IMG/VR virus record: IMGVR_UViG_3300034045_000104
Strand: one strand, 5' to 3'
DNA length: 64,000 bases
Source: a virus
Taxonomy: Duplodnaviria; Heunggongvirae; Uroviricota; Caudoviricetes
Shown: positions 10,556-57,183 of the stretch, in pieces
Numbering within the stretch: the first letter of the stretch is position 1
Layout of the letters: each line of letters begins with the position of its first letter
Made by a program: the position numbers and the translations under genes
Notes under the pieces: generated by a model
The model's input: the letters and a program-made list of their open reading frames with translations, nothing else
Told to the model about the DNA's origin: nothing
The model's database searches: none

Positions 10556-10633
10556 GCATCACCTACAATAATTATTAATTAAAATATATTATACGAGTGC
10601 GAGAAAACACACATTAGAAAACCAACAACAAAA

Positions 10634-10868: not shown

Positions 10869-10905
10869 AAAAATAAAAAAACGGCATACATTTAAATGTA
10901 TGCCG
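10869..10905 (-). terminator. rho-independent terminator downstream of methyltransferase gene
   Basis: Perfect 9-bp stem cggcataca/tgtatgccg with loop tttaaa, preceded on the plus strand by an A-run (T-run on the minus transcript). Confidence 0.65.
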
Positions 10906-10967: not shown

Positions 10968-11729
10968 TTATTTTGAACACCTAGCTTTAATCACACTCTG
11001 CTCAGAAAAACAATCAACTTGTCTAATTTCATTATTAATCCTTTTCACACTCCCATCATAATAATCCCTATCATTTTCACAGGCATCAATCTTATAGCCT
11101 AACTTATTTGATGAGATGGACAAAGAACCCGAACCATGATGAGAATCAAAGATAGTCATGCCAGGGCTTATGTATTTATTTAAAATCCAGTCATACAAAG
11201 CAACGGGCTTCTGACATGGATGGATTCGCATCTCATTTAATTTTTTATTGCCATTTTGAACATGGCCATTAATAACACCAGAACCTTGCATCATCCCACG
11301 CCACATGAATCTAAACAAATCCACTCTTGATGTCATGGAGTTATAAGCAATTTCACAATTACTTTGATCACTCCCCTCGTTGCATTTATCCCAAATGATT
11401 CTGCCAGAACCAAAATATTCATTAAAGTAATTGCATCCAAATATTATTTGATGTTTTGTGACTCTGCGCAACTCTTTAAAATACAAGCTGCCCACAGGTT
11501 CATCATCCCACTGTTTTCTTTTATATCCACCATCTACAACAAAAACCTTACCACCGTTAGCTTGTTCAACCCATGTTGAACGAGATGTACCTCCATGCTG
11601 TTTCCTACCCCACTGCGGGTCAACAATGCCGACATCATAATGATTGTCTTTAAGACCAGCCATAAACTCCATACAATCTACAAAATACAAAGAGGAGGTG
11701 CCAAGTGTTGTTTTTTCAAAATCTTTCAT
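10968..11729 (-). CDS. DNA methyltransferase, beta-class (N6-adenine or N4-cytosine; motif IV before motif I)
   Basis: N-terminal DPQW (DPPY/W-like motif IV, VGIVDPQWG) and C-terminal AdoMet motif I IFDSHHGSGSLSISSNKLGYKIDACEND. This order is typical of Pfam N6_N4_Mtase-type enzymes. Confidence 0.7.
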   Translation of the reverse strand: MKDFEKTTLGTSSLYFVDCMEFMAGLKDNHYDVGIVDPQWGRKQHGGTSRSTWVEQANGGKVFVVDGGYKRKQWDDEPVGSLYFKELRRVTKHQIIFGCNYFNEYFGSGRIIWDKCNEGSDQSNCEIAYNSMTSRVDLFRFMWRGMMQGSGVINGHVQNGNKKLNEMRIHPCQKPVALYDWILNKYISPGMTIFDSHHGSGSLSISSNKLGYKIDACENDRDYYDGSVKRINNEIRQVDCFSEQSVIKARCSK

Positions 11730-26631: not shown

Positions 26632-27120
26632 TTAAAAAGGCTGATCCATATCTGAATCAAAATCATCAAAGCTAGGCGTTGAAGCTGGAGCTTGTGGAGC
26701 TTGTGGAGCTTGTGGCTGTGGAGCTTGTGGCTGTGGAGCTTGCTGATTACTACCACCTCTTGGCTGCCCACCTTGGGCTGAGCCATTGCCTGAATTACCA
26801 AGCATTTGCATCTCATTTGCCACAATTTCGGTAGTGTATCGATCAACACCATTTGCATCAGTCCATTTGCGGGTTTGATTTTTACCCTCAATTAGCACCT
26901 GACTTCCTTTTTTTAAATACTCTCCAGCAATCTCAGCCAACCTACCAAAAAACACAATTTTATGCCATTCGGTTTTAACCTTATCTTCACCGGTACTCTT
27001 ATCTTTCCACGACTCTGATGTTGCTACTGATATATTTGTGACCGCAGCGCCTGCCGCAGTATATCTCACCTTAGGATCTTCCCCTAAATTACCAACCACA
27101 ACTGTTTTAGAATAACTCAT
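26632..27120 (-). CDS. ssb: single-stranded DNA-binding protein
   Basis: OB-fold N-terminus (...[31 protein letters not shown]...RYTTEIVA), a Gly/Gln/Pro-rich linker with PQAPQ repeats, and an acidic C-terminal tail [12 protein letters not shown] (compare the DDDIPF tip). Confidence 0.85.
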
Positions 27121-39038: not shown

Positions 39039-41270
39039 TTAAAAATTCAAATCTAATGTGGTTTGCACATTATTTGTATTACTGTGATTGTTTTCGGTTG
39101 TTACACCATTTTCTAAACTCAAATCATTTATTTCTTGATGCACGAAACTAGAATTCAGTTCAGAAGCAACATCAATTCTAGCTTTTAAAACATCTAAAGA
39201 TGCAATCGTGTGACTTGTTCTATTTCGCAATGCTATATTTTCATTTTCATAACTCATCAAATTAATATCTGAAACATCAATACTACCCTGGGTCTCATAT
39301 CCTAAATCACCAATGTTGGACGCATTACTAGATTTAAATTCCATAAAATCAACATCAGTAACACCATCAAGACAATCCTTTACGTCACAAACATCTATTT
39401 TGACTCCAGATTTAACAACAACTCCAATAAAATCTTTAAGAGATGATAAATCAGCCAACAATACATCTGATACATCCTTAGCACTAACCACATCTCCATC
39501 GATTTTATTAGGTGCATTTTTACAAACAACAATAGCATCTTTAACATAAGCTATTGAATCTATTGTATCTGAACTCAAAAAAGACAATTCTTTAAGTTTT
39601 AATTTTGCATTCCCTGAAATTAGTTCAATTCGTTTCTCAGAGAGACCACCTGATAATTTGCCTTCATCTATGTTAAATTCATTCATGTAAGAATCAATAA
39701 CAGCAGAGTTAACACCAATATTAGAAAGCCGAGAAACGACATCAAGGAAACCAGGTTTTTCTCCCATTAATGGATCAGTAAAACTAATGGATATTTGCTC
39801 AATTGGCTCAAGTAAAGAAATTCTAGATGTTAAAAATGCTTTTTGTAAAACCTCCATCTCATCTTGCTCCCAATCAGTAGTAATCCCGCCCTCCACAAAA
39901 TCCATTTTCGTAGCCTCCCCATCATCCCCCATGGTATCGTTAAGTGAAGATGTATTTAGATTTGAATAAGCTGCGTCAAGTTTAATAACTTTATCAAAAG
40001 ACAGGTCGAGCGCATCAGCAATATCAGTATCACTTGGCTTTTTTTGAAACCGCGAATAATATTCTCTTTTATACTTCTTAATCTTAAGTATATCAATCCT
40101 GTCCTTTTCTGGCACTACAACAGTATTAAACATGTTATTAGATGCATTTCTTATAAATAATTCAGCGTAATGAGTAGCGTAAGCATTGAGTCTATTCCCA
40201 TTGGCAACCCTGTATCTTTCTATGCCTTGGGTATATCCAAGAACAGCAGCAGAAGATAATTCATTGCGAATATCGTTAGAAGGATGGGGAAAGTTTTTAA
40301 CGCGCTTATTTACAATGGTATAGATCCAATTAATATTTGCTTTTAGTAGTGTCTCAACATTCTTTTTATTAGCCCTATCAAAAGAGTTCAACTCCATAAT
40401 ATGTGATTGAATTTGAGAATAGGACATATTAAATTTGTTACCTAATGCTTGTTTAAGATTATAGACTTTTAAAGCCGCTTCACTTGTTGTTTTTGTTAAA
40501 ACGCTCCCAGAAACACGCTCTAAAGAGCTTTTAAATTCATCAAGTTTTTTATCAATCGGATTATCTTTTTGTTCAATATATGTTCTAAATTGTGGACCAG
40601 ATAAATTACAATCATCAACCAATAATGTTCTCAATTCCAGTCCGAAAACAGCCATGTCTCGTGCCACAAGGTCTGAATTAACTTTAAAAGCACTTAATGC
40701 ATCCTTAGAAAAAATTAGGCTTCTTGATTTTGCTCCTATTTGCTTAGATATTTTTTTCATACTGTCTAGATCACCTGTTAACCGGGATTTCATGTGTTTG
40801 TGATATAAACGATCTATTTCCATAAATGCCTTGGATAAAACACTTACATCAACATCATTACTTTCATACTTATCTACATTCTCTAAAGCCACATCACTTG
40901 GCTCGTCCGTTTCCCTTTTATTGCTTATAAATTTTAGCTCAGTATCTGGATAAGTGCCGCTTATTACATCGGCGTAGTTAATTTCTTTATTGTGAATTTG
41001 TACTATGCGCCTATGTAACAAATCAACATTACGTGGCACCGAAAAATATTCAGAAACTGTGTCTCTCTTAATATTGCGCATATCAATAAAAACATTGAAT
41101 TCAGCCTCCGCACTTAAATAGTTGGCATTAGTCTTTTTAACAGCTAATGGCACATATTCTTTATCATTGGTTTTGAAAAATTCATCGGCAAGTTCATCAG
41201 ACTCATCTTTAAACAAGTCATCACTCATTATTGCATCAAATTCCAAATCTACTTCAGCTTTATCATTCAT
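39039..41270 (-). CDS. RNA polymerase sigma-70 family factor (RpoD-like) with long acidic N- and C-terminal extensions
   Basis: Residues about 300-470 align colinearly with E. coli RpoD regions 2-3. ANINWIYTIVNKR matches ANLRLVISIAKKY. GNRLNAYATHYAELFIRNA matches GYKFSTYATWWIRQAITRS. VVVPEKDRIDILKIKKYKREYYSRFQKKPSDTDIADALDLSFDKVIKL...DTMGDDGEATKMDFVEG matches [48 protein letters not shown]...PIGDDEDSHLGDFIED. A weaker region-4-like stretch follows. Confidence 0.7.
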   Translation of the reverse strand: MNDKAEVDLEFDAIMSDDLFKDESDELADEFFKTNDKEYVPLAVKKTNANYLSAEAEFNVFIDMRNIKRDTVSEYFSVPRNVDLLHRRIVQIHNKEINYADVISGTYPDTELKFISNKRETDEPSDVALENVDKYESNDVDVSVLSKAFMEIDRLYHKHMKSRLTGDLDSMKKISKQIGAKSRSLIFSKDALSAFKVNSDLVARDMAVFGLELRTLLVDDCNLSGPQFRTYIEQKDNPIDKKLDEFKSSLERVSGSVLTKTTSEAALKVYNLKQALGNKFNMSYSQIQSHIMELNSFDRANKKNVETLLKANINWIYTIVNKRVKNFPHPSNDIRNELSSAAVLGYTQGIERYRVANGNRLNAYATHYAELFIRNASNNMFNTVVVPEKDRIDILKIKKYKREYYSRFQKKPSDTDIADALDLSFDKVIKLDAAYSNLNTSSLNDTMGDDGEATKMDFVEGGITTDWEQDEMEVLQKAFLTSRISLLEPIEQISISFTDPLMGEKPGFLDVVSRLSNIGVNSAVIDSYMNEFNIDEGKLSGGLSEKRIELISGNAKLKLKELSFLSSDTIDSIAYVKDAIVVCKNAPNKIDGDVVSAKDVSDVLLADLSSLKDFIGVVVKSGVKIDVCDVKDCLDGVTDVDFMEFKSSNASNIGDLGYETQGSIDVSDINLMSYENENIALRNRTSHTIASLDVLKARIDVASELNSSFVHQEINDLSLENGVTTENNHSNTNNVQTTLDLNF

Positions 41271-46921: not shown

Positions 46922-48106
46922 TTAATCCCATTTTAGTGCCGTTTTGGAATAGTCGATTACGGTCGTCTCAAAAAAATTTTTCTCCTTACGAAGATTGGCC
47001 TGTTCATCAAGCCACGGTAAAGCACACTGCGCCCCAGGGAAAGGTTCAGAAAATCCCAAGCTTCTTGCTCTTCTATTGGCTATATATCTAGATTGTTCAA
47101 TATGCTCTAAAGCTGAATAGCCTAAAATCGGTTTTTTTAAAATAAAATGGGCATAAGCAGACTCAGCAGCATCTGATTCTTCCCACATGTTTTTAAGTGC
47201 TTTAGGCTCAAGTTTGATGTCATTTTCAATGAATATTTGTTTAATAACACGTATACCAAAAGATGCATGCATGACTTCATCACGCATAATATATTGAAAT
47301 TGCTGGCCTGTGGCTGCCATCATTCCCCTTCTTTGAAGAGAAAATATAGGAGAGAATCCGTTATAGAACCAGGTTCCTTCGAAGATAGCAGCAAAAAATA
47401 TATAGGCCATAATAAATTCATGAAGATCATCTTTATTAGTTAGATCCATATTAGATTTCAATACAGAATCAAGTCTACGATTAGCAATTTGAATTTTTCC
47501 ATTTATAGCTGGCACAACTCGATAACGGTTGTAAATCTCTCCCTGGTCTAGTCCGATGGTTTCGATACAATGTTGATAGGTCCATGTATGTAACGCTTCT
47601 TCATAGACTTGACGTGCTTGATAAATTTGAAGTTCTGGAGCAGTCATTTTTTCCATAACAGCCAAACCAATATTGCGCATAGCTAAAATATCAGACGTGG
47701 TAAGATATGACAGAACATTTTCATAAACATGTCGCTCATCATCATTAAGCTTATGGTAAAAATCAGAAACATCTCCAGACATTTGAATATCTAAAGGGGT
47801 CCAGTGATTTGAATTACTATTGAGAAAATACTTCCATGCCCAAGGATATTTAAATGGGGCTAATTGGTTAATATCAGATGTTCCCCCAACAACTCTTTTG
47901 TCATCAGGATTAATGGGTACTACTCCTCCTTCAACAGAACTCCTTTTATTTGCATCCTTAAATTTATCAGGAATTTCTGTAATAACATCAACATTCTTTT
48001 CAGGTGCGTCTTTTATATTTTGTTTTGGAGGTTCAATATTGTTTTCAGTCTGAGGCTTATTTAATCCTTTTCCTAAAGGATCTGCCCATGTTTTAGTTAG
48101 GTTCAT
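46922..48106 (-). CDS. nrdB: ribonucleotide reductase small subunit (ferritin-like di-iron R2)
   Basis: ...PFKYPWAWKYF..., iron-ligand helices (EALHTWTY ... FEGTWFYNGFSPIF ... RDEVMHASFG) and a C-terminal tail typical of NrdB/R2. Confidence 0.85.
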   Translation of the reverse strand: MNLTKTWADPLGKGLNKPQTENNIEPPKQNIKDAPEKNVDVITEIPDKFKDANKRSSVEGGVVPINPDDKRVVGGTSDINQLAPFKYPWAWKYFLNSNSNHWTPLDIQMSGDVSDFYHKLNDDERHVYENVLSYLTTSDILAMRNIGLAVMEKMTAPELQIYQARQVYEEALHTWTYQHCIETIGLDQGEIYNRYRVVPAINGKIQIANRRLDSVLKSNMDLTNKDDLHEFIMAYIFFAAIFEGTWFYNGFSPIFSLQRRGMMAATGQQFQYIMRDEVMHASFGIRVIKQIFIENDIKLEPKALKNMWEESDAAESAYAHFILKKPILGYSALEHIEQSRYIANRRARSLGFSEPFPGAQCALPWLDEQANLRKEKNFFETTVIDYSKTALKWD

Positions 48107-48306
48107 TTTATCTCTCTCTAATTGAGATAATAATAAACTCTCAATTATTAATTGCTATATATTAATACAGTGAAGCAATGACGTGCATTCTTCTTGAAAT
48201 GAAAGATAACACAATAAAGCCAATAATGCATTAAAAACATAAAATGAAAAAATAGTTTAATTTAAAAATAGAATAATAAAATTAATGAAGATGGAAAAGT
48301 AGGGGT

Positions 48307-48609
48307 CTAACTAATATAAAAACCATTATTAGAATTTTCTTTAAACACAAGTATAATAATTACATTATTTCTTAGCCTTAACTCCAACTCATGAATTTTA
48401 AGAAATTTATTTACATTGTATGAAATAATTTCAGCATCAATTAAATTATGAGATTTGCTGTCATGCAAAAAAGGAGTCCCATCTTTATATGAAATTGTAG
48501 CATCAAGAATAATTGAGTAATTATCCTCTAAAAGCAATTGTGTTACATTCCCACCAATTGTTTCAATAGAAACAATGGAATCACCTATCAAAGAAAAACC
48601 ATCAGACAT
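48307..48609 (-). CDS. hypothetical protein
   Basis: 100-aa ORF, AT-rich, isolated between non-coding tracts. Confidence 0.25.
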   Translation of the reverse strand: MSDGFSLIGDSIVSIETIGGNVTQLLLEDNYSIILDATISYKDGTPFLHDSKSHNLIDAEIISYNVNKFLKIHELELRLRNNVIIILVFKENSNNGFYIS

Positions 48610-48711
48610 AAAATAAATATTTAATATAAAAATGTATTATAAATCAAATAATGAAACAACTATATAAAATACCAATATAGGTTAATAATAACATAAGAAA
48701 CTACCAAGATG

Positions 48712-49466
48712 GCCTCCTCACCAGAATACTAAAACTGTGTCAGAACCTCACCAAATAGTAAAATTGTGTCAGAACCTCACCAGAATAGCAAAACTGTGTC
48801 AGAACCTCACCAAATAGCAAAACTGTGCCAGAACCTCACCAAAATAATGAAATATACAAAAAAAACAAAGAAAACAGTGCGGTATTAACACGTTCTAGCA
48901 TAAGATTAGAGTTATATAGCATTAAAGCTCCCGAATATATGTAACTTCAACACACTAAATTGGGACTATTACGAGGTTCTGGTGAGGTTCTGACACAGTG
49001 TTTTGGGGTTATTGCGTGAATCTGGTGAGGTTCTGACACAGTATTTTGGGGTTATTGCGTGAATCTGGTGAGGTTTTAACACACTAAACTGGGACTATTA
49101 CGAGGTTCTGGTGAGGTTCTGACACAGTATTTTGGGGTTATTGCGTGAATATGGTGAGGTTTTAACACACTAAATTGGGACTATTACGAGGTTCTGGTGA
49201 GGTTTTAACACAGTGTTTTGGCGCTATTGCGTGAATCAAGTGAGGTTCTGACACGCTAATTAGGTGCTATTACGTGAATCTAATGAGGTTTCAACACACT
49301 AAATTGGGACTATAAACCGGTTCTGGTGAGGTTTTAACACAGTGTTCTGGGACTATTACGAGGTTCTGGTGAGGTTTTAACACAATTTTGGTGAGGTTTT
49401 AAAACAGCATGGTGAGGTTGTGAAACAACGTGGTGAGGTTGTGAAACAGTAAAAATATTTAAAACG
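48712..49466. repeat. large iteron-like repeat region with TGTGTCAGAACCTCACCA 18-mers in opposite orientations (4-5 copies left, about 13 right)
   Basis: The left array (48716-48848) has 32-33-bp units cctcaccaRaataSYaaaaYtgtgYcagaa. The right array (48961-49450) has alternating about 43-bp units, tggtgaggttctgacacagtRttttggggttattgcgtgaat and tggtgaggttttaacacactaaaYtgggactattacgaggttc, that decay to about 21-bp units (tggtgaggttgtgaaaca). An AT-rich tract follows at 49466-49556. Confidence 0.8.
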
Positions 49467-49556
49467 TATATACCACGCCGTCTATAGAGCTAAATATTTA
49501 GTTATATAATAATGTATTAATAATAATGTATTCTAACTAATGTTTAAAAACATTAA

Positions 49557-51215
49557 ATGATGAAAAAAAAAGATAAAAGGAAAAAAATGTTAAGCAAAGA
49601 AGAAGAAGAAAAAGAACGCATTAAAGAAAAGCTTAAAAAGCAATATTTAGAATCAGCGGAAACTGAGTATGATGATAATGAAAAAGTATCTAACAGTCTT
49701 CTTGATACTCCTTCCATGATAAATGCTCAAGCAAATAATATAAATGAACAAACCAAATTTGATGACGTAGACATTGATGATTTATGTGAGATAGGTGAAT
49801 CCAAAAACTTAAATTTAGATGATTACGAAATAATCACAGATACTACAGCATACGAAGATTATGGAATAAAACCATTTGAACATTTCGGGAATAAAAAAGT
49901 TGCTATAACAGAAGAAATTATAAACAAAAACAGATTGATCCAAACCGAAAGGAGTATAGAAAGGTATGTAGGGCAAATCTTTCCATCAAATAAATCAGAA
50001 AGATTAAACAAGGAATACAGCAAGCAATGGCCAGTAAAGGCAAGACATAAAATTTCTGGAAAAGTCATAACTGTGGGAACCCAAGGAATAAAGATAAAAC
50101 CATCGCTTGATAAACTTCGGTATACCACAGAGACATTGAAAATATATTGGGCACTAATATTTTTGTGGAACGCAAATGGCTGTCCAGAAGCTAATGTTGA
50201 GATTGAAAGCAATTTAAGTGATCTTTGTAAAATACTAACCATCGAAAAAAATGGGGAAGTATATAAAAGGCTAATCAAAGAATTATATTGCCTTAAGGAG
50301 ACAAGTTTAGAATTCTTGCGCTCGTTTGAAGTAAAGGGCGGGGAAAAATACAAATCCAGAAACATAAATATATTAACTGAATTCAATCACAATTATCGTG
50401 AGAAAACACAAAATAAATACGAAAAAGCATTAGAATTAGACAAAGAACACCAAAGCAAACAAAAATTTTCTTTTAAATTCAATTCTGACATTATTGAAAA
50501 CCTCAAAAACAAAGTAACAATCCCGGTTAACCTAAAAGTATTGAATTCAATTCGGTCATCTATTGCTCAAAGCATGTACACAAAAACCAACAAAATATTA
50601 ATGTGGCGGTATAAAGAAGCACTGAGAGGGGGGATAGTAGACTATGAAAATACAGCGCGAAGAATTGTTGGAGAAATAGGATTAAAACAAAAAAACTATA
50701 AATACCCATCAAGAAGAAAAGCATTAATAAATTTAATAGTCAAGGCTCTTGATGGAAAAGAATTAACACAACCAGGCTACACAATAAAAGCAGAATTATT
50801 TGATGCTGCAAACATGGATTACAAAGTAAGATTTACTTTGGTTGTGGATAAAACTAAAATAAAAAAATCAAATAGGCCAAAAGTTATTAATACTGATCCT
50901 GATGTAATAAGGACAATTATAGATAGAATCAAGGAATACATTCAACCAAAAACTAACAAAGATGATGACGCATATAAGATTTATGCACAAGTTTATTCTT
51001 ATGATCTTATTAATGTAGCTGTTGGCCAAGCTAGAGAAAAAGAAGAATATTTAAAAACAATAGGCAATGAAGTAACTAATAGAGGCGGCTGGTTTTCTAA
51101 TACACTTCACCAAGAAGTTCATAAAAAAAGGCTTAAATGGATTGATGGATGTGATGATAACAATGAAAGTTGTCCAATTTTAAAAAGATTAAAAAATGAA
51201 GGTTACATAGTCTAA
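49557..51215 (+). CDS. Lys-rich protein adjacent to the repeat array; candidate replication initiator or partition/centromere-binding protein
   Basis: 552-aa plus-strand ORF starting within 100 bp of the repeat and AT-rich region. It has a highly basic N-terminus and no recognisable catalytic motif. Confidence 0.45.
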   Translation: MMKKKDKRKKMLSKEEEEKERIKEKLKKQYLESAETEYDDNEKVSNSLLDTPSMINAQANNINEQTKFDDVDIDDLCEIGESKNLNLDDYEIITDTTAYEDYGIKPFEHFGNKKVAITEEIINKNRLIQTERSIERYVGQIFPSNKSERLNKEYSKQWPVKARHKISGKVITVGTQGIKIKPSLDKLRYTTETLKIYWALIFLWNANGCPEANVEIESNLSDLCKILTIEKNGEVYKRLIKELYCLKETSLEFLRSFEVKGGEKYKSRNINILTEFNHNYREKTQNKYEKALELDKEHQSKQKFSFKFNSDIIENLKNKVTIPVNLKVLNSIRSSIAQSMYTKTNKILMWRYKEALRGGIVDYENTARRIVGEIGLKQKNYKYPSRRKALINLIVKALDGKELTQPGYTIKAELFDAANMDYKVRFTLVVDKTKIKKSNRPKVINTDPDVIRTIIDRIKEYIQPKTNKDDDAYKIYAQVYSYDLINVAVGQAREKEEYLKTIGNEVTNRGGWFSNTLHQEVHKKRLKWIDGCDDNNESCPILKRLKNEGYIV

Positions 51216-51226
51216 ACAATAAGTAA

Positions 51227-51565
51227 TTATGTTGTTGTCTTAATGGGGTCAAATTTAAGACAATATTTAACAGTATCAGGAATAGGGGTGTTGTTTCGCA
51301 GCTTGCAAAAAGTTAGTGATCCACCACTACCAGAAAAGGCAACAATATCTGCATGCTTACAAACGGCGCATTTATTTGTTTGGCTCAAGATTTTGAATAG
51401 ATCAGCAAAGTGTCTGGATTTATAGTCAGGATCAAGTGAGGAGTCTTTTTTATTTTTAGTATAAATAGAAATCAAATCACTGACAGAATGCTTTTCACCA
51501 GTCGAAGAGATTAAGGAAGAAACGCCAATATTATTTAAGTGTAAAAGAAAACCGATATAATTCAT
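51227..51565 (-). CDS. hypothetical protein
   Basis: 112-aa ORF. Confidence 0.3.
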   Translation of the reverse strand: MNYIGFLLHLNNIGVSSLISSTGEKHSVSDLISIYTKNKKDSSLDPDYKSRHFADLFKILSQTNKCAVCKHADIVAFSGSGGSLTFCKLRNNTPIPDTVKYCLKFDPIKTTT

Positions 51566-51692
51566 AAATTAATCCCTCAAGAAAAGTTTGCACTGGCAGT
51601 AATGGCATAGACTGATAAAAACACAACAACCAGACCAACATTGTATAAAACCCGGTTATCATTGTCAATCACCTCCCAAAGCTAGAACCCAA

Positions 51693-52181
51693 TACTCAAT
51701 ATTAGGTATTGTACTATACACAAAGCACCACCAAACAAAGCCAAGAACCTACTAAACCATACCCAAGCATAGGTATTGCACTAGACCATAACACCTACCA
51801 CCCCATACAATCCCAAACTATATGCCCCGAGATCTTCCTGAAATAGCAATTTATTCCAGCCACCTTGTGCCATTAAGTAAGGCATATTTATGTTTATCTT
51901 TTGTATGTATGGGTATTTTAAGTTGAGCTTTTACATGTCCAGCTTGTTAATGTTTGGCTTATAATATGTCAATCATATTCATGTTAGCCTTAAATACGTT
52001 TGGCTTATAACAAGTTTGTCATGAGTCAGTATGGCACTTTTTAGTTTATATTATTATGTTATGGGGATTGGAGGAACGCTTAAGGTAAGTACAATACCTA
52101 ATAGTAAGTATTGTATAGAAAAGCTTTAGTTACAGGAGTCAAGCTTGAAAGGGGAGGGAATGTTGAGTACAATACCTACCG
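51693..52181. promoter_or_regulatory. structured non-coding region: four copies of 13-mer TAGGTATTGTACT (two direct, two inverted) flanking degenerate about 15-bp periodic repeats
   Basis: taggtattgtact at 51703 and taggtattgcact at 51770 on the plus strand. agtacaataccta at 52089 and agtacaatacctacc at 52166 are the reverse complement. Between them (51885-52025) lie about 9 imperfect repeats resembling nnATGTTTGGCTTAt. Confidence 0.45.
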
Positions 52182-52204
52182 TAAGGTATCTTAGGAGTTA
52201 AACT

Positions 52205-53017
52205 ATGAAAGCAGATGTAATATTTAGAAAAGCATATGATTATGAAAGAACCATTCTGGCACGCATGGCTAAGTGGGAATCCTCAGGACAAGCTGTTGCG
52301 TTGTTTGTTGATGAGCAGTATCCTGCAGCTTATGTCACCCAACTGTTGCCCCCAGCTTTCATTCGCAGGGTAGTGGCCGTAAAAGATGCTCAAGATTTCG
52401 CACAGATTACTGACCTAGTTCATGAAATGAATAAATACTACAAGATGGCAGTTATTGCAGATCATGATGGCGATGAAAAGGCCTACAAAGGGCCAATGAA
52501 TCGATTTGCTGTGTGTGTTAAAGATGTGTTGTATGCAAGACATGTGCTCAAACAAAGCTGGGAGTCTATCAACGACTTTAAAAAGAGCCCCTTTGATTAC
52601 ATTCCTCTTATTTCAGTGAAAACTAAATGGGACCAAACACTTACCAATCTACAAAAGGAAGAAAAACTTTGTGAGTACGGTACCGTGCTATTAGCCAATG
52701 GCATCCAAAATGAATTCAAACATGGTACCTTGTATGGCCAAATAGATGGCATCAGAAAATATGGTAATGCACCAGGGCTTATAATTAGATCTCCAACTGG
52801 CACCCATCATAAAATGCACCTTAAATTTAAAGACCCTGAGTTAAAAACTAAAACCCTGGCTTGTGGCTATATTATTAGTAACGGTGAATTTGATGTTTTT
52901 AAAACAAAGCCAAGGACAAGGAAAAGACAGATTCAAGATATTCGAGAACAAATCAATCTGCCTATTTATACAGCCAATAGAACATTTTGGAAGGCAAAAG
53001 CCAATGAAATGAGCTGA
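52205..53017 (+). CDS. hypothetical protein
   Basis: 270-aa plus-strand ORF with no motifs. SD-like aggag lies upstream. Confidence 0.45.
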   Translation: MKADVIFRKAYDYERTILARMAKWESSGQAVALFVDEQYPAAYVTQLLPPAFIRRVVAVKDAQDFAQITDLVHEMNKYYKMAVIADHDGDEKAYKGPMNRFAVCVKDVLYARHVLKQSWESINDFKKSPFDYIPLISVKTKWDQTLTNLQKEEKLCEYGTVLLANGIQNEFKHGTLYGQIDGIRKYGNAPGLIIRSPTGTHHKMHLKFKDPELKTKTLACGYIISNGEFDVFKTKPRTRKRQIQDIREQINLPIYTANRTFWKAKANEMS

Positions 53018-53052
53018 TATGCTCCCATAGATAAATGAATTGGCGTATACAA

Positions 53053-53973
53053 TTACATATCTAAAATTTGTGCAAGCTGGTCATTTATATAAATTGGATC
53101 AACAAGCCCGATTTTTGCCTTTTTAACTGCATCATCAACGTAAGATAAACCCGTGTGCCCATCTGAACACTTGGAGCTGCACCAAAATTCAGAAGCTCCA
53201 ATAAAATCACCTTTTTGGATATAAGACAAATATTCATCAGTCGGAATTAATATTTCAAAAACACCAGTTCTACCAACAATACCATTTATACAATGCTCAC
53301 AACCACTTTCATTAACAAACCTTAAGTTCATCATGTCCTGTGCAAACATATTTTTAATTACGACATGATATTTAGGACTTATAAACTTTTTAGCCTGAAC
53401 AAAATTTAATCTACAATGCTTACATAAAACATTAACAAGCCTTTGTGATATAACAGCTTTAACAGCGTTGTGCTTAATCATATCATTAATAGGTATATTA
53501 ATATCTGAAATCATTCTAGGAAATAAATGAGAGGCGTTTATTGAGTGTAGAGAAGATAACACCATATGTTTTTCGTCAATTAACCTAAACACTGCATTTG
53601 CAGTATTTAAATCACGTATCTCGCTAACCAATATTACATCAATTCCCTTTTTTGAAACAATGTTAATAGCATTGGAATAATTGACGTTTCTTTTATTTAC
53701 ACCATCACCAATGCCATGTAAAACCTGATTTTGCCTAACCCCATCAATATTATATTCTATAGGATCTTCTATAGAGCAAATTATTTTATTTGCTTGGTGA
53801 TAGTTATCAATGAATTCAAGCATTACTTTTAGTGTTGTGCTTTTTCCTGAGCCAGTTGGACCCACCACAAAAATACCACCATCTGAGGATTTCAAAATCG
53901 GTTTTAAAACAGCAATAACATCATTGCTAAAACCTATGTTTGTTAATTTAAATGAATTTGTAAACATCACCAT
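53053..53973 (-). CDS. GspE/PilB-family secretion ATPase, C-terminal ATPase domain only (no N-terminal domains)
   Basis: Walker A GPTGSGKSTTL, Asp box IEDPIEY, Walker B DVILVSEIRD, His box HMVLSSLHS, and the GspE-type tetracysteine Zn site CKHC...GCEHCINGIVGRTGVFEIL (compare GCxxCxxTGYxGRxGIxELL). Only about 35 residues precede Walker A. Confidence 0.75.
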   Translation of the reverse strand: MVMFTNSFKLTNIGFSNDVIAVLKPILKSSDGGIFVVGPTGSGKSTTLKVMLEFIDNYHQANKIICSIEDPIEYNIDGVRQNQVLHGIGDGVNKRNVNYSNAINIVSKKGIDVILVSEIRDLNTANAVFRLIDEKHMVLSSLHSINASHLFPRMISDINIPINDMIKHNAVKAVISQRLVNVLCKHCRLNFVQAKKFISPKYHVVIKNMFAQDMMNLRFVNESGCEHCINGIVGRTGVFEILIPTDEYLSYIQKGDFIGASEFWCSSKCSDGHTGLSYVDDAVKKAKIGLVDPIYINDQLAQILDM

Positions 53974-53986
53974 AATTATATTCTAT

Positions 53987-54187
53987 TTATAATTTACCAT
54001 TTACAGTTTGAGGTTTGTCAAAAAATAGAACAACCAGCCATGACATAATTACCAATAAAACAATATTTAAAATATCGAGCAAAAGGTTATTAAAAATGAA
54101 GATTACTGCCAACACCATATAAAGTAATGATGTTTTAGCTGCAATTTTATAAATACGTTTTTCACTATGTTTCGCTTCTTTAGTCAT
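53987..54187 (-). CDS. small membrane protein (2 predicted TM helices)
   Basis: 66-aa ORF with hydrophobic stretches LLYMVLAVIFIF and IVLLVIMSWLVVLFF. Confidence 0.4.
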   Translation of the reverse strand: MTKEAKHSEKRIYKIAAKTSLLYMVLAVIFIFNNLLLDILNIVLLVIMSWLVVLFFDKPQTVNGKL

Positions 54188-54228
54188 ATTAATTTCCTTT
54201 GAATTTGTAATAATGCCAGTTATTTTGG

Positions 54229-54510
54229 CTAAACCTTTACAGTGCCATAAGCCAAATATTGTAAGCTATAACCGCTAGTAATGGTAAAAAATAAAGACAT
54301 CAAATAATCAATCGCTAGCTGTCCAAATAAAATAACATTTGCTACAATAAAAACTGTAGATGTTAAATTAATTAACAGTTCCTTTGTAAAAGAAACGTCA
54401 AATCCGTTAACAGCGGCATAAATAGCCAAAAACAAACCGGATAAAACAAATATATATATTGTAAGAACCAATACATCAACAATATATTTAAAAAACACTT
54501 TTAACTTCAT
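54229..54510 (-). CDS. small membrane protein (about 3 TM)
   Basis: 93-aa hydrophobic ORF. Confidence 0.4.
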   Translation of the reverse strand: MKLKVFFKYIVDVLVLTIYIFVLSGLFLAIYAAVNGFDVSFTKELLINLTSTVFIVANVILFGQLAIDYLMSLFFTITSGYSLQYLAYGTVKV

Positions 54511-54543
54511 GATTTAATTCTCCTAGTGGGTTAGTGATTTCAT

Positions 54544-54792
54544 TTATTTTGGTTCAATCACGTCATTCTGTATTTCTTTGTGTAATTTATCTTTATTCAA
54601 ATTAAAATGAACAAAGTCAAACAACGTATATAAAAAAAATAATGCGCAATACACCATAAATACTATGATTGATGCATATATATAATGGTCATAAATATTG
54701 TCTTTATTTAAGACTATATCTAATGCACCCAAAAAGAGAAAAACCGTAAGGCACATTTGAAGTACCATTTTTAGATTAATCTTTGAATTCAC
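54544..54792 (-). CDS. small membrane protein (2 TM)
   Basis: 82-aa hydrophobic ORF. Confidence 0.4.
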   Translation of the reverse strand: MNSKINLKMVLQMCLTVFLFLGALDIVLNKDNIYDHYIYASIIVFMVYCALFFLYTLFDFVHFNLNKDKLHKEIQNDVIEPK

Positions 54793-55024
54793 GTTCTTCT
54801 CCTTCTTTTAGTTTATTTAATGTTCGTGCGTACAAACGACTTCTTATCACTTTTAATCCCTTATCCCTAGCATTCCTCATTGAAGAAAAAAATTCATTTG
54901 TTAAAACTATTTTTTCACCCGTTGGTTTGTGGACACACTTAACGTACCATATGATCCTACTCATACCCGTAAAATCATTTAAGAACCCAGAAATTACATC
55001 TACATCTGTTATTTTATATTTCAT
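54776..55024 (-). CDS. small basic soluble protein
   Basis: 82-aa ORF with a 17-bp overlap to the downstream membrane protein gene. Confidence 0.35.
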   Translation of the reverse strand: MKYKITDVDVISGFLNDFTGMSRIIWYVKCVHKPTGEKIVLTNEFFSSMRNARDKGLKVIRSRLYARTLNKLKEGEEREFKD

Positions 55025-55173
55025 TAGAATAATCTCATAATACGTTATTTTAACTCAAGAAACCATTTCCAATGCTCCGGCTTCCATAAATTAGGATTGT
55101 TAACGTCTTCACTGTCTGTTGGTGGATATTGAACGCCCAGGCCAACAATGGCCTTGTTAATATGTTTTCTATG

Positions 55174-55437
55174 TCAATCAAGCAACGTATTTGCTTTAAT
55201 GCTCTGTTGCTCTGTTAATAATGATTGGTCCATTGTTGAAACATTTTTTAATTTACGACCTTGTAATATCCACTGGTCTTTAGTTACCCCTCTCTCATAC
55301 TTAGATGACCCACACATTGAAATAGCTTTGTCTTGACCAGAAAGGTAATTTAAAAACCCATTAAATAGTTTAATAAAGCACCAGCCTATAAAAACTCCCA
55401 GAGCTATTGTAAATATTAAAATTATATCAATATTCAT
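55174..55437 (-). CDS. small membrane protein (N-terminal TM anchor)
   Basis: 87-aa ORF beginning MNIDIILIFTIALGVFIGWCFIKLF. Confidence 0.35.
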   Translation of the reverse strand: MNIDIILIFTIALGVFIGWCFIKLFNGFLNYLSGQDKAISMCGSSKYERGVTKDQWILQGRKLKNVSTMDQSLLTEQQSIKANTLLD

Positions 55438-55650
55438 AATTTATTCCTCCTTACTTTCAATCTTAGCCTTTAAATATTCACTTGCATCTTTAATTTCAAA
55501 AATAACGAAAGGTACAAAGAGAATGCTAAATACAATTGCTATAAACAGAGATGCGATTCCTAAATCATGTGGCATATATAAATTCCTATTATTGTGATAG
55601 ATTTGTTTTTCATAAAAACACTTTAATTAATTTAGCCCTATTGTATTGAT

Positions 55651-56016
55651 TTACCAATAATAATAAAAATAGGGCACAATAAATAACAACACAGCAAATC
55701 CTGCCTGTAACAGACCTAGATTATTGATTCTTTTTACATACCTTAAATACAGCGACCTGACTAAAAGAACAACACCACCAAAAGCAAGAAGCTTAAGGGC
55801 AAGTTGACCCAAGGCCATTCTTGCTTCGTATACCCTATCATAATTTAATGGCATAGGCGCACCATCATCAAATATAGATAGAAAGCCAATTATAACCAGT
55901 ATCAAAAAGACAGTAAAACCCACACCCAACATTAAACCTATTAATGTATCCACTACTTTGTTTTTCTTTTTTATAACTTTAGTTTTTCCCATAACAACCT
56001 CAATTTGGTTCATCAC
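55651..56016 (-). CDS. membrane protein (about 3 TM)
   Basis: 121-aa hydrophobic ORF. Confidence 0.4.
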   Translation of the reverse strand: MMNQIEVVMGKTKVIKKKNKVVDTLIGLMLGVGFTVFLILVIIGFLSIFDDGAPMPLNYDRVYEARMALGQLALKLLAFGGVVLLVRSLYLRYVKRINNLGLLQAGFAVLLFIVPYFYYYW

Positions 56017-56052
56017 TTTTCATATGACTACAGCCATAATTCTACAATACTT

Positions 56053-56676
56053 CTAACCCCAAACAATGGCAACCTCTATACCTAAAATAAGCTGATCATC
56101 GTGCTGCTCATCTGCTTCAACCGCAGACTTACCCTTGGCCTTTTTAACAGGCTTTGGGGCAAGCACCTCATACTTTTCATACATATCCTGTTGGCCAGGA
56201 CGCTGTTCCACAGGAACACATTCAACATATTCCTTGCGCTGCTTATTCATAATATTAGGTGTTGCAGAAATCCGCAATACAGGATTTAACTCTAATTTAT
56301 TTAAATGATCATATAATCGTTTTAAATTACCACATAAATCCCGCTGGTACCGCTCTGCCAACAAAGGGGTATGTACAATGGAACCATCTACTCCTCGATG
56401 AAACTCTGTTCGCAGCATTCTTTTAATGCGCGAATTTTCCATACCTTTTAGTAACTCAACACTGCCGTCAGAACCAAACCACCCAACCACCAAGGATGGT
56501 AAATAGGATGCTGCGAATTCCAAGCGTGGCCTCAACTCTGAAATCATGTATTTAAACTCACGTTCCAATTTGTTTTGTTGATCTTTTTTGCGCTGCTTTT
56601 CAAGTGCTATGCCCTGCTGTTCTTGTTGCTTAACAGCAGCCCCATAAATGTTCTTAAGCGAATCTAAATCTATCAT
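56053..56676 (-). CDS. hypothetical protein
   Basis: 207-aa ORF, soluble, with a charged coiled-coil-like N-terminus. Confidence 0.4.
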   Translation of the reverse strand: MIDLDSLKNIYGAAVKQQEQQGIALEKQRKKDQQNKLEREFKYMISELRPRLEFAASYLPSLVVGWFGSDGSVELLKGMENSRIKRMLRTEFHRGVDGSIVHTPLLAERYQRDLCGNLKRLYDHLNKLELNPVLRISATPNIMNKQRKEYVECVPVEQRPGQQDMYEKYEVLAPKPVKKAKGKSAVEADEQHDDQLILGIEVAIVWG

Positions 56677-56763
56677 ATGCTTTTCTCTAATTATCTATTT
56701 ATACATTGTGTCCTAGCCACAACCCATATAATAACATCCAGATGATAGATGCTCAAGACCCAA

Positions 56764-57183
56764 TCAACCATTCAAAGCCAAAAGACAAGGCATAACATCG
56801 ACAAGACGATAATAACCCTTACACTCAAATTCGAGTCCATCACTGCTGTATGCCTGGAATACGAACTCATTACCATTATCACCATCTGGAAGCTCTCTAT
56901 CTGTCATATCAATTGGCAGATGTAAAGCAGGCGGTGTGGATGTAGCATTTTCAAACATAACCTCTAAACACTCAATGTCATCCATTTGCCCTCTGGAGAC
57001 AATTACATGTTCACATTTTTTCATAGCCTCAATGTCATAAAGTTTTGAATCTGGGATAAACAATCTCCCAAAACCCGGACGCCAAGACAAATACGCACGG
57101 CCAGCTGCAGCATGTGCTGTACTAAAATAATTTGTACTCAAAAACTGCGAGCCCTTTGTTTTTATTGTTATCAACTCACTCAT
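56764..57183 (-). CDS. hypothetical protein
   Basis: 139-aa ORF. Confidence 0.4.
   Translation of the reverse strand: MSELITIKTKGSQFLSTNYFSTAHAAAGRAYLSWRPGFGRLFIPDSKLYDIEAMKKCEHVIVSRGQMDDIECLEVMFENATSTPPALHLPIDMTDRELPDGDNGNEFVFQAYSSDGLEFECKGYYRLVDVMPCLLALNG

What the first reader, a model, noticed from the sequence alone, without database searches (positions are those of the whole stretch)
48712..51215. About 750-bp iteron-like array (18-mer TGTGTCAGAACCTCACCA in both orientations) plus AT-rich tract next to the largest plus-strand gene: candidate replicon or partition module
Four to five direct copies of a 32-33-bp unit sit on the left. About 13 copies of the reverse-complement 18-mer (TGGTGAGGTTCTGACACA), spaced at about 43 then about 21 bp, sit on the right. 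They are separated by a non-repetitive core of about 130 bp and followed by a 90-bp AT-rich tract. A 552-aa Lys-rich plus-strand ORF begins immediately after the AT-rich tract. Repeats, an AT-rich unwinding element and an adjacent divergent gene form the canonical layout of iteron-controlled plasmid or phage origins (RepA/pi type). It could equally be a parS/parC centromere with its binding protein. The 552-aa protein has no recognisable family, so it is a candidate novel initiator or centromere-binding protein. The alternating two-subtype organisation of the 43-bp units is unusual.
Basis: partly seen in the sequence, partly recalled or inferred. Interest (0 to 1): 0.85.

Follow-up and report, generated by a model that had tools for sequence, protein, structure and literature searches.

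The report
Iteron replication origin with divergent Rep initiator
This is most likely the replication origin and initiator gene of a rare, large plasmid-like element: a known kind of module, but with an unusually large two-part repeat array and an unannotated, very divergent initiator protein.

Summary
The 18-mer TGGTGAGGTTCTGACACA (up to 3 mismatches) occurs 16 times in the 64-kb window, all within 48736-49448, against 0.03 expected. Four copies lie in one orientation at 29-30 bp spacing. Ten 43-bp units and four 21-22-bp units (the last 43-bp unit counted in both) lie in the other orientation. The two least stable 80-bp duplex segments of the whole window bracket the array.

Homologues elsewhere sit on plasmid-like contigs, each beside its own, different repeat array. 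In the one related element found, flanking genes are 55-74% identical. Its rep is only 30% identical, its iterons are unrelated, and the array-plus-rep block is inverted, so the block behaves as one exchangeable cassette.

No ParA or ParB gene is present, so the partition reading is not supported.

Verdict: an iteron-controlled replicon, a new member of a known kind. Function was not tested here.

The parts
48609..48688 (.). Left AT-rich tract, candidate DNA-unwinding element (DUE-L). Contains about 2.7 copies of a 13-bp unit, TAATATAAAAATG (48609-48643).
   Evidence: GC 13-15%. It is the least stable 80-bp duplex segment of the whole 64-kb window by nearest-neighbour free energy, -77.6 against a mean of -100.0 (sd 5.8) kcal/mol. 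TRF row.
48712..48841 (-). Left iteron block: a partial copy at 48712-48724, then four 18-mers (48736, 48765, 48795, 48824) at 29-30 bp spacing. Each is followed on its own strand by GTTTTGCTATT, a shortened A-type linker. The block points towards DUE-L.
48842..48936 (.). Non-repetitive, A-rich core between the two oppositely oriented blocks.
   Evidence: Sequence. GC 28-33%. Duplex stability is unremarkable.
48937..49384 (+). Right block of long units. A degenerate first unit (linker only, 48955-48979) is followed by ten 43-bp units, each an 18-mer plus a 25-bp linker. Linker subtype A is GTRTTTTGGGGTTATTGCGTGAATC and subtype B is CTAAAYTGGGACTATTACGAGGTTC. Units at 49238 and 49281 are degenerate.
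   Evidence: TRF period 43, 10.1 copies, with higher-order periods of 86 and 129. Register table..
49367..49448 (+). Four closely packed short iterons at 21-22 bp (two helical turns), nearest to the rep gene and pointing towards DUE-R. The first is shared with the last 43-bp unit.
   Evidence: TRF period 21, 3.9 copies..
49449..49556 (.). Right AT-rich tract, candidate DUE-R. It must also hold the rep promoter. Contains a perfect 14-bp x 2 repeat, ATAATAATGTATTA (49506-49532).
   Evidence: GC 13-28%. Segment 49491-49570 is the second least stable 80-bp segment of the window, -78.6 kcal/mol. TRF row. No convincing sigma-70 consensus promoter was found.
49557..51215 (+). rep gene, 552 aa (or 542 aa from Met11 at 49587). 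Predicted iteron-binding initiator.
49557..49910 (+). N-terminal extension absent from relatives: a K/E-rich long helix (aa 2-37) followed by an acidic, low-confidence linker (aa 41-118, pI 4.1).
   Evidence: Relatives align only from about aa 115-125. Model. Composition.
49911..50891 (+). Tandem winged-helix (WH1-WH2) core, aa 119-445, pI 9.8.
50892..51215 (+). C-terminal helical domain, aa 446-552, carrying the conserved motif F513, H518, H522, W528, C532, C539. This may be an HHCC metal site.
   Evidence: Alignments. H/H/C/C are present in 51-55 of 80 family members. No structural match for this part was identified. The metal site is inference.
51227..51565 (-). Conserved 112-aa flanking gene, which marks one border of the exchangeable cassette.
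   Evidence: 55% identical to L002 4387-4731. No Pfam or PHROG family.
46922..48106 (-). Ribonucleotide reductase small subunit, the conserved flank on the other border of the cassette. The 100-aa ORF at 48307-48609 lies between it and DUE-L and is absent from L002.
   Evidence: Pfam PF00268, E 8e-59. 67% identical to the L002 7470-7919 product.

Best explanation
The region 48.6-51.2 kb is an iteron-type (theta) replicon: an origin plus the gene for its own initiator.

The 552-aa protein is a tandem winged-helix Rep initiator. As monomers it would bind the approximately 18-bp iterons, as RepE, pi and RctB do. Cooperative binding to the in-phase iterons (21-22 bp and 43 bp, that is two and four helical turns) would bend the DNA and melt an adjacent AT-rich tract. 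The host helicase and replisome are then loaded there.

Because the short iterons lie just upstream of rep, the same binding should repress the rep promoter (autoregulation). The large surplus of sites, ten long units plus an inverted block of four, most plausibly sets copy number by titration or by pairing of arrays ('handcuffing'). This is what the incA and incC iterons of P1 and F, or the incII region of Vibrio chromosome 2, do. It would suit a low-copy element of at least 143 kb.

Shown here: the repeats, their phasing and locus specificity; the flanking minima of duplex stability; the Rep fold and family link; the recurrence of 'rep plus private repeat array plus AT tract' among homologues; and the co-divergence of rep and array as one cassette.

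Inferred: actual binding, melting, autoregulation, copy control, which AT tract is the DUE, and whether this is the element's only origin.
For: 1. Repeats: 16 matches against 0.03 expected, all in one 740-bp non-coding stretch.

2. Family: exhaustive phmmer finds 180 relatives with E up to 1e-3 that cover aa 120-540. Of 80 aligned relatives, 19 hit Pfam PF10134 RPA (best E 3.9e-11), 12 hit Rep3_N and 4 hit Rep3_C. P0006 is related to the query at E 1.3e-26 and scores 36.3 bits on RPA, above the gathering cut-off of 27. P0006 also matches an annotated 'replication initiator protein A' on a Paenibacillus plasmid, E 3e-8.

4. Comparative: each homologue locus with at least about 160 bp of flank next to the gene, other than L003, has its own clear repeat array beside rep.
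- L002: 13 copies
- L005: 5 copies
- L006: 5 copies at 22 bp
- L007: 5 copies
- L009: 5 copies
- L130: 3 copies at 22 bp
The repeat sequences are all different. L003 has only loosely scattered copies. In 5 of 6 loci tested, the least stable or second least stable 80-bp segment abuts or lies within the array. Contexts are plasmid-like, with ParA, toxin-antitoxin genes, TrwC or Replic_Relax relaxases and a coupling protein.

5. Duplex stability: the two least stable 80-bp segments of the window flank the array.

6. Cassette: in the related element L002, flanking genes are 55-74% identical. Its rep is 30% identical, its iterons are unrelated, and the array-plus-rep block is inverted. Of the genes next to the array, only rep has diverged as far as the repeats have.
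Against: - The query itself has no direct Pfam, PHROG or NCBIfam hit. An A1 profile search against PDB sequences finds nothing significant. The family link is therefore transitive plus structural.
- No DnaA box lies in the intergenic region, and boxes are not enriched in the window.
- No clear sigma-70 promoter lies upstream of rep.
- GC skew shows no sign switch at the locus beyond what the local change of gene strand explains. Cumulative skew keeps falling on both sides. Skew therefore gives no independent support for a bidirectional origin. It would fit unidirectional replication or a pure coding-strand bias.
- Only 64 kb of a contig of at least 143 kb was seen, so another origin could exist and the element type (plasmid, phage-plasmid or other) is not established.
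- Nothing was tested functionally.
Confidence: 0.8

Rival explanations
1. The array is a partition centromere (parS, parC or sopC-like). The 552-aa protein would be its centromere-binding protein, or the array would be bound by another protein.
For: The ten tandem 43-bp units recall F sopC, which has twelve 43-bp repeats (from my own knowledge, not checked here). In some homologue loci ParA genes lie close to rep: L007, L009 and L130. The arrays that lie downstream of rep in L007 and L009 could in principle be centromeres.
Confidence: 0.05
2. It is a Rep/iteron module, but not the working or main origin of this element. It could be a secondary, silent or remnant replicon picked up by cassette exchange. 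Alternatively, the Rep homologue could act mainly as a transcription or copy-number regulator, while replication starts elsewhere in the contig of at least 143 kb.
For: Large plasmids are often multi-replicon. A second, unrelated repeat array with a perfect DnaA box lies at 10633-10826. GC skew shows no switch at the locus. Less than half of the contig was seen.
Against: The ORF is intact and 15 of 17 iterons are well conserved, which argues against decay. The same position holds a complete but different rep-plus-array cassette in the related element L002, which suggests the slot is kept functional. No other Rep-like gene was found in the 64 kb.
Confidence: 0.12
3. It is a phage-type origin of a large phage or phage-plasmid. 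The Rep would work like lambda O or P1 RepA during lysogenic (plasmid-prophage) maintenance.
For: Several window genes hit PHROG families: SSB, exonucleases, methyltransferases, RNR, a sigma factor and phrog_6160. Relatives of one gene occur in many phages. P1-type prophages use iteron replicons (established knowledge).
Against: No capsid, portal, terminase or tail family was found in 64 kb. Rep has no hit in 50,697 phage records and no significant match among predicted viral structures. The T2SSE-type ATPase next door matches 4146 plasmid records and 22 phage records. Homologues sit on plasmid-like contigs. The initiation mechanism would be the same in any case.
Confidence: 0.1

Closest known systems
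RctB with ori2/incII of Vibrio cholerae chromosome 2
   Different: No sequence-level similarity to RctB, and only 10-11% identity in the structural alignment. RctB iterons carry a GATC site whose methylation is needed for binding (PMC3401445). There is no GATC anywhere in 48600-49560. Here the long units contain the full short iteron. It is untested whether they act as inhibitors as the 39-mers do. The extra domains have not been shown to be homologous.
Plasmid Rep_3-type initiators and their iteron origins (RepE of mini-F, pi of R6K, RepA of pPS10 and P1)
   Different: The protein is about twice as long, 552 aa against 214-252 residues in the matched PDB chains. It has an N-terminal helix plus acidic linker and a C-terminal HHCC-motif domain. 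The locus has 17-18 sites in one place, more than I recall for the classic mini-replicons (own knowledge). It also has two opposed blocks, composite 43-bp units with two co-varying subtypes, and AT-rich minima on both sides. No DnaA boxes were found.
Pfam PF10134 'RPA' (Replication initiator protein A) family
   Same: This is the nearest sequence family. 19 of 80 relatives hit it, and P0006 passes its gathering threshold. P0006 also matches a PGAP-annotated 'replication initiator protein A' on a Paenibacillus plasmid.
   Different: The query and its closest relatives (P0002, P0003, P0005) do not reach any Pfam model. Only the N-terminal (WH1) part of the relatives aligns to the RPA model. Members found in public data are all named 'hypothetical protein'.
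TrfA with oriV of RK2
   Same: An iteron initiator with a third DNA-binding domain besides WH1 and WH2 (PMC8034659). As I recall it (own knowledge, not checked here), oriV has several iteron clusters, including an inverted one, next to AT-rich 13-mers. Here 13- and 14-bp tandem repeats lie in both AT-rich tracts.
   Different: No TrfA structure or sequence appeared among the matches. The position and sequence of the extra domains differ. oriV has DnaA boxes; none are seen here.
F plasmid sopC centromere
   Same: Tandem 43-bp units in a long array (from my own knowledge, not checked here).
   Different: As I recall it, each sopC unit carries an inverted repeat bound by the ParB-type protein SopB, and sopC lies beside sopAB. 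Here the repeat is asymmetric, no ParA or ParB gene is present, and the neighbouring gene is a Rep.

Membership tests
Iteron-type replicon (Rep_3 / RPA winged-helix initiator superfamily) | The initiator matches the family's sequence models directly. | tested here: not met
   The query has no Pfam, PHROG or NCBIfam hit. The A1 profile finds no Rep among PDB sequences.
Iteron-type replicon (Rep_3 / RPA winged-helix initiator superfamily) | Homology to family members through intermediate sequences. | tested here: met
   The query is related to P0006 at E 1.3e-26 over about 410 aa. P0006 scores 36.3 bits on PF10134, above the gathering score of 27. Of 80 relatives, 19 hit RPA, 12 hit Rep3_N and 4 hit Rep3_C. 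P0006 matches an annotated plasmid 'replication initiator protein A' at E 3e-8.
Iteron-type replicon (Rep_3 / RPA winged-helix initiator superfamily) | Tandem WH1-WH2 fold. | tested here: met
Iteron-type replicon (Rep_3 / RPA winged-helix initiator superfamily) | Directly repeated, locus-specific binding sites (iterons) next to rep, phased with the DNA helix. | tested here: met
   17-18 copies at 21-22, 29-30 and 43 bp spacing, and nowhere else in the window. No similar DNA in the plasmid or phage collections.
Iteron-type replicon (Rep_3 / RPA winged-helix initiator superfamily) | AT-rich DNA-unwinding element adjacent to the iterons. | tested here: met
   The two least stable 80-bp segments of the 64 kb flank the array, and each carries 13- or 14-bp tandem repeats. 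Actual melting was not tested.
Iteron-type replicon (Rep_3 / RPA winged-helix initiator superfamily) | Rep and its iterons co-vary: a private site sequence for each Rep. | tested here: met
   Seven homologue loci carry seven different repeat sequences. In the related element L002, rep (30% identity) and the iterons diverged together while the flanks stayed at 55-74%.
Iteron-type replicon (Rep_3 / RPA winged-helix initiator superfamily) | DnaA boxes in the origin (common in this family but not universal). | tested here: not met
   TTWTNCACA does not occur in 48600-49556. The window total of 11 is below the 14.2 expected.
Iteron-type replicon (Rep_3 / RPA winged-helix initiator superfamily) | Rep binds the iterons, and the fragment supports autonomous replication. 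| not testable with these tools
   This needs EMSA or footprinting and a mini-replicon test.
RctB family (Vibrionaceae chromosome 2 initiator) | Sequence homology to RctB, including its domains 1 and 4. | tested here: not met
   No RctB chain appears in the profile search of PDB sequences. Only domains 2-3 match, by structure and at 10-11% identity.
RctB family (Vibrionaceae chromosome 2 initiator) | Iterons with an internal GATC site (methylation-dependent binding). | tested here: not met
   No GATC in 48600-49560. The feature is described in PMC3401445.
RctB family (Vibrionaceae chromosome 2 initiator) | Two classes of initiator site with opposite effects (iterons and 39-mers). | tested here: inconclusive
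   Two length classes exist: 21-22-bp units, and 29-43-bp composite units with conserved linkers. Their effects cannot be tested here.
ParABS / SopABC-type partition locus | Adjacent ParA-type ATPase and centromere-binding protein genes. | tested here: not met
   No ParA, CbiA, AAA_31 or ParBc hit among the window's ORFs.
ParABS / SopABC-type partition locus | Centromere repeats that contain an inverted repeat for a dimeric binder. | tested here: not met
   The 18-mer and its reverse complement do not match when read directly from the sequence.
CRISPR array | Identical repeats separated by unique spacers, usually with cas genes. | tested here: not met
   The 25-bp 'spacers' are themselves repeated in two subtypes. 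No Cas family was seen in the scans.

The most novel reading that the evidence does not exclude
The origin may use two functional classes of Rep site, as only Vibrio chromosome 2 is known to do. Short 21-bp iterons next to an unwinding element would fire initiation. Long composite units of 29-43 bp (iteron plus conserved linker, in two co-varying subtypes and in two opposed blocks) would act as dedicated negative-control or pairing sites. These would be read with the help of the extra N-terminal helix and the C-terminal HHCC domain of an enlarged Rep.

With unwinding-prone tracts mirrored on both sides, the locus might even be a twin origin firing in both directions. The whole unit would be an exchangeable, invertible 'replicon cassette' in a rare lineage of large extrachromosomal elements.
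Probability: 0.2. Interest if true: 0.6.

Novelty: new member of a known kind. Interest (0 to 1): 0.4.

Why it matters
It locates the likely origin and initiator of a rare mobile element of at least 143 kb. Only two representatives of this lineage turned up in 5.8 billion proteins.

It gives a functional label to a sizeable family of 'hypothetical proteins'. The family has 180 cluster representatives at 50% identity, spread over environmental plasmids, and current Pfam, PHROG and NCBIfam models mostly miss it.

Practical uses are replicon typing and host-range prediction for uncultured plasmids, and a possible new replicon for vectors.

The enlarged Rep and the composite arrays offer a natural comparison with RctB for how plasmid initiators acquire extra control layers when replicons grow large.

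The kind of system itself is textbook, so the general surprise is modest.

Tried and rejected
- Direct family searches of the 552-aa protein found nothing: Pfam, PHROGs and NCBIfam, and tblastn against phages and plasmids.
- The word-indexed protein search returned only the query itself, both with the single sequence and with the profile. Lys-rich low-complexity words probably flood the candidate list.
- The single-sequence AlphaFold model was useless, pLDDT 35.
- The A1 profile against PDB sequences gave no significant hit.
It found no relatives in viral contigs or metagenome contigs.
- A DNA pattern scan of metagenome contigs for paired iteron cores gave at least 120 loci, and none carries the full iteron. 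These are chance or coding repeats, so the scan was wasted.
- The 18-mer in IMG/VR gave one single-copy hit, which is chance level.
- Exact look-ups of the window's own proteins found no contig on record. The rest of the 143-kb contig, its circularity and its sample could therefore not be examined.
- The afdb50 fold library was unavailable.
- GC skew is uninformative because it follows gene strand.
- The sigma-70 promoter scan was no better than shuffles.
- A CRISPR reading was considered and rejected because the 'spacers' repeat.
- A protein-coding repeat was rejected because only ORFs of 40 aa or less cross the array.
- A structured RNA was rejected because there is no Rfam match.
Full report
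**1. What is in the sequence**

The repeat array is real and highly non-random. The 18-mer TGGTGAGGTTCTGACACA, allowing three mismatches, occurs 16 times in the 64-kb window. All 16 lie between 48736 and 49448. Dinucleotide-preserving shuffles give 0.03 matches, and none of 100 reaches 16. One more degenerate copy lies at 49281.

The locus has a clear anatomy:
- A left block of four full copies and one partial copy on the minus strand, at 29-30 bp spacing (48712-48841).
- A non-repetitive A-rich core (48842 to about 48936).
- A right block on the plus strand of ten 43-bp units (18-mers at 48980 to 49367), preceded by a linker-only remnant.
- Four tightly packed 21-22-bp units (49367-49448), the first of which is also the last 43-bp unit.

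Each 43-bp unit is the 18-mer plus a 25-bp linker. The linker comes in two subtypes that co-vary with the 18-mer variant. CTGACACA goes with GTRTTTTGGGGTTATTGCGTGAATC, and TTAACACA goes with CTAAAYTGGGACTATTACGAGGTTC. The order is a mosaic with recombinant units, not a strict alternation. TRF accordingly reports higher-order periods of 86 and 129 bp. The left-block units carry a shortened A-type linker (GTTTTGCTATT). The conserved element is therefore longer than 18 bp in the long units, and only the four gene-proximal units are 'bare' iterons.

The array is non-coding; only ORFs of 40 aa or less cross it. It matches no Rfam family. It has no similar DNA in 72,556 plasmid or 50,697 phage records.

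**2. AT-rich flanks**

There is a second one on the far side. I computed nearest-neighbour duplex free energy in 80-bp windows over all 64 kb. The two least stable segments of the entire window are 48609-48688 (-77.6 kcal/mol) and 49491-49570 (-78.6), against a mean of -100.0 and sd of 5.8. They bracket the array exactly.

Each iteron block points outwards, ACACA end first, towards its own AT tract. Both tracts contain short tandem repeats: a 13-bp unit x 2.7 on the left and a perfect 14-bp unit x 2 on the right. This recalls the 13-mers of known unwinding elements.

No DnaA box (TTWTNCACA) lies in the intergenic region. No GATC occurs in it.

**3. The 552-aa protein**

The ORF 49557-51215 is the longest plus-strand ORF. 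It is 13.4% Lys with pI 9.1. Met11 at 49587 has the better ribosome-binding context.

Direct searches fail:
- Pfam, PHROGs and NCBIfam.
- tblastn against phages and plasmids.
- The word-indexed protein database, which returns only the protein itself, on a JGI metagenome contig of 143,161 bp.

An exhaustive phmmer search of 1.84 billion representatives found 180 relatives with E up to 1e-3, and 58 with E up to 1e-10. Most are 400-450 aa and align to residues about 120-540 of the query. The first 115 residues or so are therefore an extension peculiar to this protein.

Of 80 aligned relatives (A1), 19 match Pfam PF10134 'Replication initiator protein A' (best E 3.9e-11), 12 match Rep3_N (WH1) and 4 match Rep3_C (WH2). 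P0006 is related to the query at E 1.3e-26. It scores 36.3 bits on PF10134, above the gathering score of 27. It also matches a PGAP-annotated 'replication initiator protein A' on a Paenibacillus crassostreae plasmid.

With alignment A1, AlphaFold2 gives a confident model: pLDDT 85.5, pTM 0.73, with most of residues 120-550 above 90. The single-sequence model was useless.
- Foldseek against the PDB returns 47 hits up to E 1.8e-3. All are RctB domains 2-3 (best E 5.6e-8) or RepE, several in complex with iteron DNA. The next hit has E 0.29.
- Nothing significant turns up among predicted viral structures.

The protein therefore has four parts:
- An N-terminal K/E-rich helix (aa 2-37).
- An acidic, poorly predicted linker (aa 41-118, pI 4.1).
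- A basic WH1-WH2 core (aa 119-445, pI 9.8).
- A helical C-terminal domain (aa 446-552) with the conserved pattern F513, H518, H522, W528, C532, C539. The H/H/C/C residues are present in 51-55 of 80 relatives. A metal site there is my inference.

**4. Evidence from relatives elsewhere**

I fetched nine loci that encode eight of the homologues. Each locus with at least about 160 bp of flank next to the gene, apart from L003, carries a clear private repeat array directly beside the rep gene:
- L002: 13 copies of GTTAGACTACCTGTGTAA spread over about 1 kb upstream, including 20-21-bp and 40-bp spacings.
- L005: 5 copies at 33-45 bp.
- L006: 5 copies at exactly 22 bp.
- L007: 5 copies downstream, mostly at 22 bp.
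- L009: 5 copies downstream at 23-32 bp.
- L130: 3 copies, two of them a 22-bp tandem pair, followed by an AT-rich stretch.
- L003: only loosely scattered copies.

L131 is cut at the contig end just upstream of rep, and L004 yielded no array.

No two loci share a repeat sequence. In 5 of 6 loci tested, the least stable or second least stable 80-bp segment abuts or lies inside the array. The four loci with substantial context are plasmid-like, with ParA, ParE/ParD toxin-antitoxin genes, TrwC or Replic_Relax relaxases, a TraG/TrwB coupling protein and recombinases. One contig of about 20 kb recurs in several samples. Public names for family members are all 'hypothetical protein'.

**5. A related element shows that rep and array travel together**

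L002 is a 10.5-kb contig from a sequencing-run assembly, and it is a fragment of a relative of the window's element. Its products match window genes as follows:

| Window gene | Identity to L002 product |
|---|---|
| 56764-57183 | 64% |
| 56053-56676 | 62.5% |
| 52205-53017 | 74% |
| 51227-51565 | 55% |
| RNR small subunit, 46922-48106 | 67% |
| Rep, 49557-51215 | 30% |

The two iteron sequences do not cross-occur, even at three mismatches. The block 'array plus rep' is also inverted relative to the conserved flanks:
- L002 reads: 114-aa gene, array, rep, RNR, all on one strand.
- The window, read on its minus strand, has: 112-aa gene, rep (opposite strand, 3' end first), array, a 100-aa ORF, RNR.

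The array and rep therefore behave as one exchangeable, invertible cassette at a fixed slot. Of the genes that adjoin the array, only rep has diverged as far as the repeats. This is what is expected of a site-specific binder and its sites. It argues against the conserved 270-aa and 112-aa neighbours being the binders. This lineage is rare: the 270-aa neighbour has just these two versions in the 5.8-billion-protein collection.

**6. What kind of element**

Nearly all genes in the window are on the minus strand, with strong GC skew. Recognisable functions are:
- Class II-type RNR large subunit and RNR small subunit.
- RecD2-like helicase.
- SSB.
- Exonucleases.
- Several DNA methyltransferases.
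- An anti-restriction-like protein.
- Sir2.
- PAPS reductase.
- 5'-nucleotidase.
- A large sigma-factor-like protein.
- A cell-wall hydrolase.
- A T2SS/T4SS-type ATPase.

No capsid, portal, terminase or tail family was found, and no ParA or ParB. The secretion-type ATPase matches 4146 plasmid records, mostly conjugative, against 22 phage records. I therefore regard the element as plasmid-like. However, I saw only 45% of the contig and could not retrieve the rest, so a phage-plasmid is not excluded.

**7. Mechanism**

The best-supported reading is an iteron-controlled theta replicon.

By analogy with RepE, pi, TrfA and RctB (PMC4980987, PMC10602881, PMC5397143, PMC3401445), Rep monomers would bind the helically phased iterons, distort the DNA and open an adjacent AT-rich tract. 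The right tract, next to the four short iterons, is the simplest candidate. Host helicase and replisome are then loaded. The lack of DnaA boxes suggests little or no dependence on DnaA, or a host whose boxes I did not model.

Binding to the rep-proximal iterons should also repress rep. The surplus of sites, ten long units plus the inverted block, fits copy-number control by titration and array pairing ('handcuffing'), as expected for a large low-copy replicon.

Every step beyond 'Rep-fold protein next to private phased repeats and unwinding-prone DNA' is inference.

GC skew neither supports nor contradicts this. The sign does not switch at the locus except where gene strand changes. That is compatible with unidirectional replication or with a coding-strand effect.

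**8. Comparison with known systems and novelty**

The locus works like a classical iteron replicon and passes the testable membership criteria of the RPA/Rep_3 superfamily. These are transitive sequence homology, WH1-WH2 fold, private phased iterons, an adjacent unwinding-prone tract, and Rep-iteron co-variation. It fails direct model matching and lacks DnaA boxes.

It is not a member of the RctB family. It has no sequence homology and no GATC iterons. RctB is nonetheless the best structural match and the closest analogue for an enlarged initiator with two size classes of site.

The partition (sopC or parS) reading fails its defining features.

What is unusual:
- The size of the array, 17-18 sites over 740 bp.
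- The composite 43-bp units with two co-varying subtypes.
- The opposed blocks, each facing its own AT-rich minimum.
- The N-terminal extension and the HHCC C-terminal domain.
- The cassette exchange and inversion between related elements.

I rate it a new member of a known kind: a divergent, unannotated Rep subfamily with an elaborate origin.

Noticed in passing
window 10633-10826: A second, unrelated repeat array. It has about 8 units of 21-23 bp (AAATGTTCCTGWTATCCGAGTGG), with 5 matches at up to 3 mismatches against 0.00 expected. It is followed at once by a perfect DnaA-box consensus, TTATCCACA (10818-10826). The array lies between two minus-strand genes, downstream of a perfect 24-bp palindrome with a T-run that looks like a terminator (about 10874-10897). 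The upstream gene, 10968-11729, is a DNA methylase, and the downstream 104-aa ORF has no family. It could be a second origin, a centromere or an operator array.
   Followed up: partly
L002 (whole locus) against window 46922-57183: L002 is a fragment of a sister element with 55-74% identical flanking proteins. Relative to it, the window carries about 3 kb extra between the 270-aa and 207-aa genes (53053-56016), including the T2SS/T4SS-type ATPase (53053-53973) and a 121-aa membrane-like ORF. It also carries an extra 100-aa ORF (48307-48609) between the origin and the RNR gene.
   Followed up: partly
window 51093-51176 (Rep aa 513-539): A conserved F-x4-H-x3-H-x5-W-x3-C-x6-C pattern lies at the C-terminus of Rep. 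The H/H/C/C residues are present in about 64% of 80 family members. It may be a zinc site in an initiator family where I know of none being described.
   Followed up: partly
window 1-64000: Almost all genes are on the minus strand, with persistently strong negative GC skew (-0.15 to -0.41) and no switch across 64 kb. This is compatible with unidirectional replication or with a strong coding-strand bias.
   Followed up: no
window 39039-41270 (-): A 743-aa protein with a Sigma70 region 3 match and a PHROG 'RNA polymerase sigma factor' match only in its middle (aa 269-473). Its distant relatives are in jumbo and cyanophages. It is an unusually large sigma-like protein for a plasmid-like element.
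   Followed up: partly
window 1371-3320 (-) and 46922-48106 (-): The element encodes a B12-type (class II-like) ribonucleotide reductase large chain and, 45 kb away, a class I-type RNR small subunit. This is an odd pairing that I did not examine.
   Followed up: no
L130 7872-7898 and L131 about 88-125: In two distant homologue loci, short repeats of about 11 bp containing TTAGA(C/T) lie between the iterons and rep: GATACTTCTTA x 2.5 in L130 and CTTCTTAGACATTCTTTTAGACCTTTTTAGACACA in L131. This may be a shared accessory site or an unwinding-element motif.
   Followed up: no
window 26686-26742: A 15-bp tandem repeat (TGGAGCTTGTGGCTG x 3.6) lies inside overlapping minus-strand ORFs. It is probably a coding repeat.
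   Followed up: no
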